A stretch of 63,590 bases of DNA, counting the filler, from Theionarchaea archaeon (GTDB lineage: Archaea > Methanobacteriota_B > Thermococci > Methanofastidiosales > SZ-28-30), in assembly GCA_018992565.1 (NCBI GenBank). It is 6 parts of 6 records of this genome, joined end to end, with 100 filler letters (N's around TTAATTAATTAA, not from the genome) between each part and the next. Parts side by side here need not be neighbours in the genome. Positions count along the whole stretch, not along the records: positions 46,470 to 53,731 come from JACVGW010000108.1; 5 more parts are not named here. One strand, 5' to 3'. Below are positions 48,001 to 51,000 of the stretch, in pieces (the stretch's first letter is position 1; each line of letters opens with the position of its first letter). A program made the position numbers.

Positions 48001-51000
48001 GAGAACCTTTATAAAGCCGAGGTTCCTTCTCTAAAAGAGAGGTGAATAGATGGAGAACGTCAAGATACAAAACGTTGTTACATCGGCCACCCTGAATGAA
48101 ACCATTGATCTGGAACGAATAGCCACTGCTGTGGAAGATATTGAATACGAACCTGAGCAGTTTCCAGGTTTGGTCCTGCGGCTTGATGATCCGAAGACTG
48201 CTACCCTTGTGTTTGGTTCTGGAAAACTAGTGTGCACAGGGGCAAAGTCACCGGAGGAGTCCAGAAGGGCCATCTACAAGATCATTGATCTACTCAAGAA
48301 GGAAGACACCCCTATTCCTGATCCGGTGTGGCAGGTGCGATGGAGTGGTGACGGCGCTGAACACGCATTCGAGGGAACAATAACCGCTCAGTCCATCAAG
48401 AATGTAAAGTACGTAGATGAAGAGCAGAGAAAAAAAGAGCTCAAGAAAGACAAGATAAAAAACGATAAGAATACTATCACCTTTACAGGGTCTGCATTGG
48501 AGGGTCAAAGAGGTATTAATTTTGAAGCTGAAGGTGTTATTACCTTTGATATCAAGGTGGACTCCGAGTACAAGCCTGAATCTGTCTTTGTGGGTAAGAA
48601 TAAGACCAACCCTCCTGAAATCCCCTTTGAACTGAGAGAACAGCCCACGCTGTCGGGACTGGATTCCATAAATCCCGCTCGTGAACCTCGCCACATTCCC
48701 GGGGAAGATGCAGGGGTATTCGTGTGGTTCAGAGGACCTGAGATTGTTGTTCAAAATATTGTGGCTTCTGCAGACCTGGGTGTTGAATTAAACTTAGATG
48801 CAATTGTCTTTGGTCTTCCCAACTGTGAATATGAGCCTGAACAATTTCCAGGGCTAATCTACAGGTTGAAAAAACCCAAAGTAGTTCTCTTGTTGTTTGG
48901 TTCAGGTAAGATTGTGTGTACTGGTGCAAAGACTAGAGAAGACGTGGAGAATGCAATAGTTGAAGTCAGGAGAGCACTCAGAAAGATAGGCGTGAAAATG
49001 TGATCGGATGCAGATACCGTATGCATTCATAGGAAAACTCCTCATTTTCTCTCTTGTTTTCCTTTTCATTGCTGCAGCTATTTCGCTGGTGCTGGGATTC
49101 ATTTTACTGCGAAAAGGAGTCATGATTTTACCCAGATTCGTCCTGTATGTTATCGACAGTCTGTATTTTCTGCTGAAGAAGCTAGTCCGCCTTGTGGGAC
49201 TGAGTGAACGGTTTGTTGACGAAATAGGTATTGAAATACGCAACAGAACCTATGAGAAAGGATTCACCAAATCACGAGCAGACGGAAGGATTCTGGTCTT
49301 CCCTCAGTGCCTTCGCAGCCCCAAGTGTCCTGGTCCTCTGACCCAGTACGGGATTCAATGCAAGATGTGCGGACAGTGTGTCATAGGGGACTTGAAGAAG
49401 AAAGCGGAAGCTGTGGGGTATAAGGTGTACATTGTACCAGGAGGAAGTTTTGTAAAGCGTATCGCGAAAAAAGACAGGCCCACAGGAGCTCTGGGTGTGG
49501 CCTGTGGATATGAGCTCAACTATAGTATGATGGAGATTTCAGCTCTCTGCCCCGTACAGGGTGTTCCTCTCTTAAAAGATGGATGCTACTGCACCAAAGT
49601 GGATGAAGAACTGGTTCTGGAAAAGCTGTTGCTGGGCATCACCGAGACATCTGCAGAAAGAGAAGAACCTGAGGAAGAAGGAAGAGAAGAGGGAGAGAGG
49701 CACAAGGCTCCCAAGGTGACAGTATGACGGTGATAACTGATAACCACATGCACCTGGACAAGAAAGGGTTATACCTGGAGGCTGTGCACCAGTTCAAGAG
49801 AGCGGGAGGAGGACGGATTATCCTGGTTCAGAAACCAGGGTTTCCCCAGACTATAGAAGAATTTGTACAGCAGGTTGAACAGACACTGACCATGTGTCAG
49901 GAAGTGAGGCAAATTGTGGAATGTTACCCTGTGGTGGGGTTGCATCCGGCTGAATTTGACAGGTTGTTCAACAAGGGGAAAGAGGACGTATGTTATCAGG
50001 CCCTGGATACTGTAGAATTGTATATACAGGAAAAAAAGGTTGTGGGTATGGGAGAATTCGGGAGACCACATTATCCTGTCTCAGAGCAGACCTATCAGGC
50101 TTCCCATGAATACATGATCCAAGCGTTGATACGTTCCCGGGAACTTGACTGTCCCATCCAGCTGCACACTGAATCACTGGATAGTGCTGGCATTGAAGCT
50201 CTTGACAGATTGATTAAGGAACTGGGCTGCTCACGCGTTATTAAGCATTTTGCTCCTCCCATTCCTGAGTATGACAGCATGACCCCTTCCATTCTGGCCA
50301 CTGAGTCCAATATCACCCAGGCTGTAACCTCCGGGATGAAGTTCTTCATGGAGACTGATTACATAGATGACCCACGGAGACCGGGTGCAGTGCTGGGTCC
50401 AAAGACTGTTCCCAGGACCACATTGAAGCTTCTGGCTGAAGGCGTTCTCACTGAGGACATGGTGGTCCGAATCCACGACCAGGATATACCCTCGCTGTAC
50501 AACCTGTGAACTAGCCCAGGGAAATTACCACGGTCGCACTGGGTCCCAGTCCTGTGGCAGTCTTGGCACTGATGGCAACCATGAAGTCCCCTGAATTGAG
50601 GATACACTTGCCGTAAGAATCGCCCGGCTCATCCCAGTCTTTGGCAAATACTTCGCTCATGTCCAGTCGATACACTCCTTCATTGAACTTCGCGGGATAC
50701 ACGATGGCCGAACACGAATACGTGCATCCGCTCCCGGATGTGAAGGTCCATTCAACATAAAAGTATTCTACAGGAAATGGATACGTTGTATGAAAGTAGA
50801 TGTCTGCATACTGGACAGGATCCACTCCAAGAGAGAAGGTCATGGGCGGAGTATCAATAATGACTTCTGGCTGGCTGGAGATGGGAGACTCTTCATCAGT
50901 TGACCCTGCAGCATCCTCACCTCCCGGAAACAAGGAAATGACACTTCCACGTTCATTGTTCTTGACAACTCTGATGTAGTGCCATGGACTCTGGGCTCCA

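What a model noticed while it worked through the whole genome (the two positions that open the first line are those of the whole stretch)
48050..49003. The only TATA-binding protein carries a conserved 145-residue beta-rich domain inserted between its two repeats
g01382 is the sole TBP gene of this genome, yet it is 317 aa instead of the ~180 aa of other archaeal TBPs: the two canonical repeats (residues 4-84 and 232-312) are separated by a ~145-residue insertion made of a predicted beta-sandwich (93-170) and a Pro/Gly-rich linker. The domain is an isolated copy of a Pfam-less repeat module that otherwise occurs in tandem in large NHL-propeller proteins. It is not an intein, is strongly conserved, is confined to this genus-level Theionarchaea lineage, and replaces rather than supplements the normal TBP, which implies a lineage-specific partner or regulatory input at the core of transcription initiation.
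Evidence so far: Pfam TBP hits at 4-84 and 232-312 only; nine GTDB TBPs of other genera (178-199 aa) align end to end with a 135-137-residue gap; top case of a genome-wide insertion screen, 3 genes pass. Six-frame PF00352 scan of the genome: only these two repeats. Insert-only search of 5.8 billion proteins: 18 clusters, all 314-317-aa TBPs of Theionarchaea-type MAGs, 72-81% identical over the insert; 15 full-length proteins align at 93% mean column identity. Insert-only scan of 34 genomes of the order: 3 of 3 species of this genus (one cut by a contig end), 0 of 31 others. A canonical 180-aa TBP of another Methanofastidiosia MAG (P0195) is 88% identical over both repeats and lacks residues ~92-229; five oth [...]
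(Added by a program. Inside this text positions count along the whole contig: they may not be those of the stretch shown here. "Call 12" and the like, gene names such as g00115 and contig names such as C1 are that model's own, and its searches are not shown. The text may have been shortened before it was handed on; [...] marks where a part breaks off. The agent that wrote the report below was given it as the finding of a first reader that could run no searches.)

Follow-up and report, generated by a model that had tools for sequence, protein, structure and literature searches.

The report
TBP split by a borrowed beta-sandwich domain
The only TATA-binding protein of this uncultured archaeon carries, between its two DNA-binding halves, one complete unit of a repeat otherwise found in secreted proteins, which is an unusual addition to a core transcription factor whose role is still unknown.

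Summary
Window 48050-49003 (+) encodes a 317-aa TBP. Its two Pfam TBP repeats are separated by about 137 extra residues that replace three residues of the normal inter-repeat linker. It is the only TBP in the assembly and in the two sister species. The sister genus has a canonical 180-aa TBP.

New here: the whole insert, including the supposed Pro/Gly linker, is one period of an unnamed beta-sandwich repeat. It is cut in a shifted register, from strand B of one unit to strand A of the next, so its two ends should meet. The repeat otherwise sits in large proteins with secreted-type domains and in small proteins with signal-like N-termini. No other copy was found in this genome or in 133 genomes of the phylum.

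The insert is under purifying selection (dN/dS about 0.06, core 0.01). It was acquired once. It has lost three polar residues that the family conserves.

No fold, family or partner explains its function. My best guess is an added interaction surface on an otherwise normal TBP. I found no published report. It is a new variant of a known kind.

The parts
48008..48015 (+). TTTATAAA, a TATA-box-like element about 35 nt upstream of the ATG; GAGAGGTGA (48037-48045) is a possible ribosome-binding site
   Evidence: Read directly from the sequence; not tested.
48050..49003 (+). Gene for the 317-aa TATA-binding protein (stop codon included)
   Evidence: NCBIfam TATA-box-binding protein models match in two stretches.
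48050..48316 (+). TBP repeat 1 (residues 1-89) up to the linker residues TPI
   Evidence: PF00352 match at C83:1590-1832, which is window 48059-48301; 79 of 89 positions invariant among 19 long orthologues.
48317..48736 (+). Inserted module, residues 90-229 (PDP...FRG): one period of an unnamed beta-sandwich repeat in a shifted register
   Evidence: 137-column gap against canonical TBPs; junction codons; module HMM match at 93-199, 103 bits; colinear BLASTP to one period of P0123; AF2 insert-only model with pLDDT 85.6.
48326..48346 (+). First strand of the insert (VWQVRWS, residues 93-99), homologous to strand B (GWHxRW) of free modules
48419..48472 (+). Lys-rich loop (residues 124-141, EEQRKKELKKDKIKNDKN), 5-6 residues longer than in the module family
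   Evidence: Insertion relative to the HMM and a 5-residue gap against P0123; residues 120-141 hold 9 K/R and 6 D/E.
48503..48538 (+). GQRGINFEAEGV (residues 152-163). The family motif DGxDF is RGxNF here; 8 of 12 positions are invariant among the long TBPs
48623..48658 (+). PFELREQPTLSG (residues 192-203). REQPTLS is invariant in the long TBPs but is not a conserved feature of the module family; AF2 confidence is low at 199-208
48701..48736 (+). GEDAGVFVWFRG (residues 218-229), homologous to the leading strand A (GxDxGYFIW) of the next unit in tandem arrays; predicted to be a strand
48737..49000 (+). TBP repeat 2 (residues 230-317)
   Evidence: PF00352 match at C83:2274-2519; 84 of 88 positions invariant; aligns to P. 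woesei TBP 1pcz residues 95-183.
49008..49727 (+). DUF116 gene starting 4 nt after the TBP stop, followed by TatD; this neighbourhood is conserved in the lineage (context only)

Best explanation
This is the organism's single, working general TBP. Its two lobes are connected through an extra folded domain. About 137 residues replace three linker residues (canonical TPI-KGE-PEI becomes TPI-PDP...FRG-PEI). The insert is exactly one period of an unnamed beta-sandwich repeat. Elsewhere that repeat is found in tandem in large proteins with secreted-type domains, the nearest one on a bacterial MAG contig, and singly in small proteins with signal-like N-termini. The copy was taken in a shifted register: it starts at strand B of one unit and ends with strand A of the next. 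In free modules A and B form a hairpin. The insert's two ends should therefore lie side by side, and the module can sit on two very short tethers (PDP and RG-PE) in the middle of the TBP linker as a circularly permuted but complete sandwich. This part is inferred. The module was acquired once, after the split from the sister genus and long enough ago that synonymous sites are saturated within the lineage. It is translated and kept under purifying selection. It has lost three polar residues (His, Asp, Asp) that the family conserves, and it has gained features specific to the TBPs: a longer Lys-rich loop, an invariant FEAEG strand and an invariant REQPTLS segment. The two TBP lobes are almost invariant, so DNA bending and TFB recruitment should work as in other archaea. 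My inferred mechanism is that the module projects from the mid-linker, away from the DNA-binding underside, and offers an extra binding surface. That surface could serve a lineage-specific factor or another part of the initiation complex. I put the identity, origin and selection at about 0.9, and the interaction-surface function at about 0.35-0.4; the confidence given here is for the whole statement, function included.
For: The gene, its two repeats and the middle part without any Pfam family. Sole TBP in G000 and G001, and in the cut gene of G002; canonical TBP in the sister genus G003 and in all other relatives found. The same 314-317-aa form appears in 18 clusters from several independent sources, so an assembly artefact is excluded. 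Module homology: 91 proteins at E<=1e-3, 19 at <=1e-10. An HMM built from 20 free modules, without any TBP, matches residues 93-199 at 103 bits. Shifted register: the same HMM places residues 204-226 on its leading positions 45-67. This is weak (E 0.04 in P0001, 3.7e-4 in P0017 and 0.0043 in P0019, each for a one-sequence search space). BLASTP aligns insert 3-138 colinearly with P0123 739-869, from DGQWHLRW to DAGYFLW (E 2e-20). Spacings between successive units in tandem proteins have a median of 146, most between 126 and 168 (83 spacings). The last strand is predicted with high confidence (block 131-140 pLDDT 89). No other copy: one hit among 34,794 six-frame segments of the genome; 2 of 133 genomes of the phylum, both of them this TBP. 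The nearest NHL+module protein, P0124, lies on a contig titled 'uncultured bacterium'. Selection: G000 against G001 gives dN/dS 0.010 for the core and 0.066 for the insert; L103 against L105 gives 0.007 and 0.063; most other pairs have saturated dS. Single origin: the TBP inserts form a clade with support 0.998. Composition is that of the host: GC 0.471 against 0.467 for the genome. Lost family residues H95Q, D154R and D157N in 6 of 6 TBPs examined. TBP-specific conserved segments. Contigs from RNA libraries, 100% identical, cover 48506-48715 inside the insert, with no joints.
Against: No partner, ligand or contact was identified, so the function is inference. No coordinates were available. 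Neither the pairing of the first and last strands nor the position of the module relative to DNA and TFB was checked; both rest on homology and on recalled TBP topology. The evidence that places the C-terminal segment on strand A is weak by HMM score alone and depends mainly on the colinear BLASTP alignment. The full-length model is mediocre (pLDDT 69.5). Purifying selection is also what a functionless domain would show if its misfolding harmed an essential protein. The insert evolves about 6-9 times faster than the core in dN/dS, and only 57 of 140 positions are invariant. The RNA-library contigs may derive from DNA, and none bridges a junction by 31 letters on each side. The genome is 88% complete.
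Confidence: 0.4

Rival explanations
1. Tolerated passenger. The module landed in a permissive surface linker, adds nothing to transcription, and is conserved only because a misfolded or truncated insert would cripple the essential TBP and a clean deletion is rare.
For: No family, fold or partner points to a function. The insert evolves several times faster than the core and has 57 of 140 invariant positions against 163 of 177. The polar residues conserved in the family are lost, as expected if the ancestral activity was dropped.
Against: dN/dS of about 0.06 is low for a mere passenger. There is only one 1-residue indel among 19 orthologues even though synonymous sites are saturated. Invariant segments that are not family features and lie partly in a stretch predicted to be flexible (REQPTLS, FEAEG) are hard to explain by fold maintenance alone.
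Confidence: 0.3
2. Built-in modulator of TBP itself. The module, through its Lys-rich loop or its acidic FEAEG strand, contacts promoter DNA beside the TATA box or docks back on the TBP surface, and so tunes the affinity or lifetime of the TBP-DNA complex without an external partner.
For: The Lys-rich loop is 5-6 residues longer than in the module family and holds 9 K/R in 22 residues. The tethers are very short, which should fix the module close to the saddle. Both the TBP core and parts of the insert are invariant, as expected for an internal interface.
Against: The loop is one of the less conserved parts (4 of 18 invariant) and also holds 6 acidic residues. No geometry was available to show that it can reach DNA or the TBP surface.
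Confidence: 0.2
3. Self-association. The module pairs with itself, making the TBP a dimer that could bridge promoters or be held inactive.
For: Nothing direct. The modules occur side by side in tandem arrays, so contacts between modules are conceivable.
Against: Nothing direct either way.
Confidence: 0.05
4. Artefact or non-protein element: an assembly chimera, an intein, or an intron removed before the mature protein is made.
For: None found.
Against: The same architecture appears in 18 clusters from NCBI, JGI, ENA and Logan assemblies, in 5 loci with DNA and in DNA contigs of several studies. Selection acts at the codon level within the insert. There is no Hint or intein family and no joints in RNA-library contigs.
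Confidence: 0.02

Closest known systems
Canonical archaeal TBP (for example Pyrococcus woesei TBP, PDB 1pcz, 1ais, 1d3u)
   Same: Two PF00352 repeats; phmmer E 2.3e-52 to 1pcz. The EQFPG and FGSGK motifs occur in both repeats and are invariant; from memory, these carry the DNA-kinking phenylalanines. There is one gene per genome, as in most relatives searched.
   Different: The 9-residue inter-repeat linker is interrupted by a folded module of about 137 residues, giving 317 aa instead of about 180-190. I found no TBP with a domain between the lobes among the 120 best hits listed.
TBPs with terminal additions: the eukaryotic N-terminal domain and archaeal acidic C-terminal tails
   Same: Lineage-specific extra sequence on a conserved TBP core. 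Tailed archaeal forms of 237-256 aa were seen here. The abstract of PMC7221094 mentions paralogues with additional regions.
   Different: Those additions are terminal and look low in complexity. This one is internal, folded, and derived from a repeat found in secreted-type proteins.
The unnamed beta-sandwich repeat of secreted-type proteins (for example P0122-P0124 with NHL propellers; P0140 and P0157 as single modules)
   Same: 30-38% identity over the module. It shares the family's conserved W, R, W, F, G, D, F, G, F, F, D, D, G, P, P, F positions and has the length of one period.
   Different: A single copy inside a cytoplasmic DNA-binding protein, in a shifted register. The family's H, D, D and G positions are Q, R, N and S/T. 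It has a longer Lys-rich loop and a TBP-specific REQPTLS segment.
Lineage-specific sequence insertions in bacterial RNA polymerase beta and beta' (sandwich-barrel hybrid motif domains) - recalled, not tested here
   Same: Folded beta-rich domains inserted into surface loops of an essential, highly conserved transcription protein and confined to particular lineages.
   Different: A different host protein, a different fold family and a different domain of life. No homology is claimed.
Ig-like, cohesin-like and adhesin beta-sandwiches (for example 9ifr CLIPPER domain, collagen-binding domains, cohesins)
   Same: These are the best structural matches of the insert model: Z 6.0 for 9ifr_A (rmsd 3.5 over 89 residues), and 14 chains with Z>=5.
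   Different: The scores are in the range the tool describes as a common arrangement. Foldseek finds nothing at E<=0.001 and there is no sequence match to any PDB chain. I do not assign the insert to any of these.

Membership tests
TATA-binding protein (Pfam PF00352, archaeal TBP) | Two TBP repeats that score above the curated cut-off | tested here: met
   214 bits against a cut-off of 22.9, two stretches; 108.6 and 111.1 bits in the six-frame scan.
TATA-binding protein (Pfam PF00352, archaeal TBP) | The two repeats joined by a short linker (total about 180-200 aa) | tested here: not met
   137 extra residues sit between the repeats. NCBIfam TBP models score 179-225 bits, below their curated cut-offs in 9 of the 10 listed; only NF001593 passes, with 191.8 against 181. 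It is a TBP by its repeats and a variant by its architecture.
TATA-binding protein (Pfam PF00352, archaeal TBP) | Conserved DNA-contacting and TFB-contacting residues | tested here: inconclusive
   The EQFPG and FGSGK motifs and CEYEPEQ in repeat 2 are present and invariant. That these are the contact residues is recalled, not tested here.
TATA-binding protein (Pfam PF00352, archaeal TBP) | Binds and bends TATA DNA and recruits TFB | not testable with these tools
   Two normal-length TFB genes (310- and 314-aa ORFs) are present in the genome.
Intein | Hint domain, with nucleophile and His-Asn junction residues | tested here: not met
   No Hint or intein family at E<=1. The junctions read TPI-PDPVW and WFRG-PEI. 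The required junction residues are recalled.
Unnamed beta-sandwich repeat of secreted-type proteins | Significant match to a profile built only from free modules | tested here: met
   103 bits, E 7.5e-34, residues 93-199; 91 family hits with the insert as query.
Unnamed beta-sandwich repeat of secreted-type proteins | Conserved polar positions: H in WHxRW and the two D in DGxDF | tested here: not met
   The family has H at 73%, D at 75% and D at 69% among 131 modules; the TBPs have Q, R and N in 6 of 6.
Unnamed beta-sandwich repeat of secreted-type proteins | Secreted context: signal-like N-terminus, tandem arrays, extracellular partner domains | tested here: not met
   The host protein is a cytoplasmic TBP with a single copy. 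The signal peptides were judged by eye, not with a predictor.
Cohesin / Ig-like adhesin folds | Clear structural superposition | tested here: inconclusive
   Best Z 6.0, none at 8 or above; Foldseek best E 0.14.

The most novel reading that the evidence does not exclude
A general transcription factor with a built-in receiver. A repeat unit from secreted-type, probably bacterial, proteins was captured in a permuted register in the linker of the only TBP of a Theionarchaea-type genus. It has since been reshaped (loss of the ancestral H/D/D site, gain of the REQPTLS and FEAEG surfaces) into a docking site. Through this site a lineage-specific factor or signal would act on every promoter. That would be the first archaeal case of global regulation wired directly into TBP, functionally comparable to the regulators that bind eukaryotic TBP.
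Probability: 0.25. Interest if true: 0.85.

Novelty: new variant of a known kind. Interest (0 to 1): 0.66.

Why it matters
TBP is one of the most conserved and compact proteins of archaeal and eukaryotic transcription, and its linker is normally a few residues long. Here a whole lineage has run all of its transcription, for a long evolutionary time, through a TBP with a foreign folded domain between the lobes.

That matters in three ways. It shows that the inter-lobe linker is a permissive site for grafting domains. It is a clean natural example of a repeat unit captured in a shifted register, so that it inserts as a circular permutant. It is also a tractable test case, full-length protein against insert deletion in established Thermococcales in vitro systems, for how new regulatory surfaces can be added to the basal machinery. 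If a partner exists, it would be a new layer of global control in Archaea.

Tried and rejected
1. Self-association of the insert. Complex prediction with two copies of the 144-aa part scored 0.00 and 0.00 against a mark of 0.42; the verdict was 'no answer'. This is not evidence either way.

2. Fold assignment. Foldseek against the PDB found nothing at E<=0.001. The full VIA scan gave a best Z of 6.0, only generic sandwiches. A profile of the module against PDB sequences gave 0 matches at E<=10. The ESM Atlas gave a best score of 0.79, below the useful range.

3. Family naming. Pfam and NCBIfam gave nothing meaningful on 16 and 20 proteins respectively.

4. Donor search. The module tree leaves the sister of the TBP clade unresolved (support 0.11). 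The own genome has no NHL+module gene. The scan with P0124 mostly returned NHL propellers without the module, so the taxonomic range of the module was not mapped.

5. Expression. Only three short contigs from two RNA libraries lie on the gene. None bridges a junction by 31 letters on each side, and parts without cover mean nothing.

6. Neighbourhood. NfeD-SPFH-TBP-DUF116-TatD is conserved within the lineage but suggests no functional link. The sister-genus contig is only 1636 bp.

7. Other long TBPs. The 272-289-aa forms are three-repeat TBPs and the 237-256-aa forms have C-terminal tails. None has this insert.

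Full report
**1. The observation**

Window 48050-49003 (+) is an ATG-started ORF of 317 aa. Pfam finds TBP (PF00352) with E 1.6e-64 in two stretches, the better one at residues 232-312. 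The 144-residue middle part alone matches no Pfam family at E<=1. In the assembly that holds the window (2.80 Mb, 154 contigs, 88.4% complete), a six-frame PF00352 scan gives 5 matches at E<=10. Only two pass the curated cut-off, and both lie in this ORF.

The same scan over 41 genomes finds TBP in 39. Outside this genus every uncut ORF is 181-210 aa, and none was found in G013 and G018. The two sister species carry the long form only. G001 has a 317-aa ORF that is 94% identical over the insert. The G002 gene is cut by a contig start. Three assemblies of 88, 91 and 84% completeness all lacking a second TBP makes an unassembled canonical copy unlikely, though it is not excluded.

The next genus of the same family (G003) has a canonical TBP with the same sequence as the 180-aa protein P0020. 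It is 86-90% identical to the long form over the two repeats. In the 5.8-billion-protein collection the long form appears as 18 clusters of 314-317 aa at 86-91% identity, from NCBI, JGI, ENA and Logan assemblies. One cluster is named Theionarchaea archaeon DG-70-1 by its source. The architecture is therefore not an assembly artefact.

**2. Where the insert sits**

The alignment of 19 long and 2 canonical proteins shows one gap of 137 columns. At codon level the sister genus reads ...TPI-KGE-PEITVQN... and this gene reads ...TPI-PDP[...]FRG-PEIVVQN.... So 140 residues (90-229) replace three linker residues between helix 2 of repeat 1 and the first strand of repeat 2. The junctions do not look like an intein's, and no Hint family is found. 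The GC content of the insert (0.471) is that of the genome (0.467), so there is no compositional trace of a recent arrival.

**3. What the insert is**

A search of 1.84 billion representative proteins with the insert alone gives 91 proteins at E<=1e-3, 19 at <=1e-10 and 4 at <=1e-30. I scanned 25 of them against Pfam:
- 5 carry NHL propellers.
- 4 carry GH8 glycoside hydrolase domains.
- 3 carry FG-GAP repeats, 2 of them also ASPIC.
- Others carry PhoD, GDSL lipase with He_PIG, beta-helix, TPR or Ig-like domains.
- 9 have no Pfam family at all.

Many hits are small proteins of 150-200 aa with one module behind a hydrophobic, signal-like N-terminus, judged by eye. The module itself has no Pfam or NCBIfam model and no sequence relative in the PDB. 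It is thus an undescribed domain typical of proteins that look secreted or surface-bound.

**4. One repeat period in a shifted register (new here)**

In free modules the fold opens with a hairpin...G-x-D-x-G-Y-F-I-W-x-D-x-x-G-W-H-x-R-W-T...: strand A, a tight turn, then strand B. The TBP insert begins directly with strand B (D-P-V-W-Q-V-R-W-S-G-D-G) and ends with G-E-D-A-G-V-F-V-W-F-R-G, which is strand A.

- A profile built from 20 free modules, with no TBP in it, matches residues 93-199 to its positions 72-175 (103 bits).
- The same profile places residues 204-226 on its leading positions 45-67. This second match is weak: E 0.04 in this protein, 3.7e-4 and 0.0043 in two orthologues, each for a search space of one sequence.
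- The stronger evidence is colinearity. BLASTP aligns insert 3-138 with residues 739-869 of the tandem protein P0123 (E 2e-20). That alignment runs from DGQWHLRW of one unit, through the inter-unit segment, to DAGYFLW of the next. Insert 5-138 likewise aligns with residues 607-734 (E 8e-23).
- Spacings between successive units in tandem proteins have a median of 146 residues, most between 126 and 168 (83 spacings). The 137-140-residue insert therefore has the size of one period.

If the strands pack as in the family, the insert is a circular permutant cut at the A-B turn, and its N- and C-termini lie side by side. That is what a domain needs in order to be spliced into a short linker. The insert-only AF2 model (pLDDT 85.6, pTM 0.82) predicts ten strands, including 134-140 of the insert (222-228 of the protein) at high confidence. 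I had no coordinates, so the A-B pairing is inferred and not seen.

**5. Origin**

- The profile finds no other copy among 34,794 six-frame segments of the genome.
- It finds none in 131 of the 133 genomes of the phylum. The 2 hits are this TBP in G000 and G001.
- The NHL+module protein P0123 finds only the TBP insert in the own genome.
- The related P0124 lies on a contig titled 'uncultured bacterium', and one Chromatiaceae MAG contig matches it over residues 26-1126.
- In a tree of 137 modules the six TBP inserts form one clade (support 0.998) on a long stem. Their sister group is unresolved (0.11).

My reading is a single acquisition from outside the lineage, probably from a bacterial gene, after the split from the sister genus. 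The donor is unknown.

**6. Selection**

Nei-Gojobori estimates were made on five distinct genes. G000 against G001 gives dN/dS 0.010 for the two repeats and 0.066 for the insert (dS 0.78 and 0.47). L103 against L105 gives 0.007 and 0.063, with dS near saturation. Most other pairs have saturated dS. One near-identical pair (L103 against L104) gives 0.38 for the insert, but on very few changes (dN 0.009, dS 0.024).

The insert is therefore read as protein and kept under purifying selection, about 6-9 times looser than the extremely constrained core. Among 19 orthologues there is one 1-residue deletion. Of the insert positions, 57 of 140 are invariant, against 163 of 177 in the core.

RNA evidence is thin. 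Contigs from two metatranscriptome libraries, 100% identical, cover 48506-48715 (inside the insert) and 48713-48950, and show no joints. They could stem from DNA in the libraries, and none bridges a junction by 31 letters on each side.

**7. What changed after capture**

Against 131 modules of the family, the TBP inserts keep the hydrophobic and glycine framework: W94, R97, W98, F107, G109, D134, F145, G155, F158, F166, D167, D171, G182, P188, P192 and F193. In 6 of 6 TBPs examined they replace three polar positions that the family conserves: H95 to Q (family H 73%), D154 to R (D 75%) and D157 to N (D 69%). G172 also becomes S or T. A His/Asp/Asp set in a secreted-type module suggests a metal or ligand site that was given up; that is my speculation.

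The TBP inserts have also gained features. One loop is 5-6 residues longer and Lys-rich. The most conserved stretches include GqrGinFEAEGV and PFeLREQPTLSg (8 of 12 and 10 of 12 positions invariant). REQPTLS is not a conserved feature of the family, and it partly overlaps a stretch of low AF2 confidence, 199-208.

**8. Fold and known relatives**

Foldseek finds no PDB match at E<=0.001. A full VIA-align scan gives a best Z of 6.0 (9ifr_A, an adhesin CLIPPER domain, rmsd 3.5 over 89 residues), followed by collagen-binding, pilin and cohesin sandwiches. Fourteen chains reach Z>=5 and none reaches 8. The tool itself rates that range as a common arrangement. The ESM Atlas gives nothing usable. The module is a beta-sandwich of the general adhesin or cohesin kind, and no more can be said.

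**9. How it may work**

Shown: the TBP lobes are almost invariant and carry the usual motifs. They align to P. woesei TBP at E 2.3e-52. Two normal TFB genes are present. There is no other TBP. So this protein must do the general TBP job with the insert in place.

Inferred from recalled TBP topology: the mid-linker lies at the side of the saddle near the pseudo-dyad, opposite the side where the N- and C-termini emerge. It is not on the DNA-binding underside and not at the C-terminal stirrup that binds TFB. The tethers (PDP, RG-PE) are short, so the module should be held fairly rigidly.

I rank the hypotheses as follows:
- An added interaction surface, for a lineage-specific factor or another part of the initiation complex (about 0.35-0.4).
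- A tolerated passenger, kept only because it must fold (about 0.3).
- An internal modulator that touches DNA or the TBP surface (about 0.2).
- Self-association (about 0.05); the one prediction I ran gave no verdict.
- An artefact, intein or intron (about 0.02).

**10. Context**

Upstream lie NfeD and SPFH genes. Downstream, 4 nt after the stop, lie a DUF116 gene, then TatD, a gene without a Pfam family, and HypB. This order is kept in G001 and in three metagenome loci. It suggests no link to the insert.

**11. Literature**

Three full-text searches gave no paper describing a TBP with a domain between its lobes: TATA-binding protein/archaea/insertion/Theionarchaea, TBP/inter-repeat/insertion/archaeal and Theionarchaea/TATA.
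- PMC7221094 and PMC3597702: I saw only matched passages. The shown passages contain nothing on this architecture. 'Linker' occurs 0 and 1 times, and the one linker passage concerns RNase HIII.
- The 2026 preprint on insertions in universal proteins: in the passages shown it treats ribosomal proteins and an RNAP subunit, and has no occurrence of 'TBP' or 'TATA'.

Supplements were not read. The absence of a report is limited to this library.

**12. Verdict**

This is a real, old, selected, single-origin insertion of one permuted unit of a secreted-type repeat into the only TBP of a Theionarchaea-type genus. It is a new variant of a known protein. Its function is open.

Noticed in passing
Proteins P0022, P0023, P0024, P0025 and P0028: TBPs of 272-289 aa with three TBP repeats in a row instead of two, each known from a single metagenome contig. 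In four of the five, two of the repeats are near-copies of each other. They may be real triplications or mis-assemblies of the internal repeat.
   Followed up: no
Genus g4 genomes, for example G005:C1:60221-60472 and G014:C55:2903-3154: 15 of the 17 genomes of a neighbouring genus carry, besides a normal TBP, a separate ORF of about 103 aa with a single TBP repeat (53-63 bits). Single-lobe TBP-domain proteins of some Euryarchaeota are described in PMC3597702 (abstract seen).
   Followed up: partly
Proteins P0158, P0190, P0197 and P0209: Some single-module proteins with signal-like N-termini end in a shared tail of the form W-[IV]-P-G-[HN]-..-[LR]-[RW]-G-..-I-P-[AGS]-H-x-R, which no family search named.
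   Followed up: no
Module family against TBP residues 95, 154 and 157 (window 48332-48334, 48509-48511, 48518-48520): The family conserves a His and two Asp (WHxRW, DGxDF), which may form a metal or ligand site. All six TBP inserts examined have Q, R and N instead.
   Followed up: partly
Window 46420-46469: A run of N joins different contigs in the window. Positions 1-31034 are contig C76 of the assembly, while the TBP gene lies on contig C83, so features on the two sides of the join are not neighbours in the genome.
   Followed up: partly
Window 50511-51422 (-): A 303-aa ORF with a hydrophobic N-terminus and no Pfam family. It is conserved (59-65% identity) next to TatD in two metagenome loci of the lineage.
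   Followed up: no
Proteins P0089, P0095, P0096 and P0098: Archaeal TBPs of 237-256 aa with long acidic, low-complexity C-terminal tails. This is another, terminal way of extending TBP.
   Followed up: no
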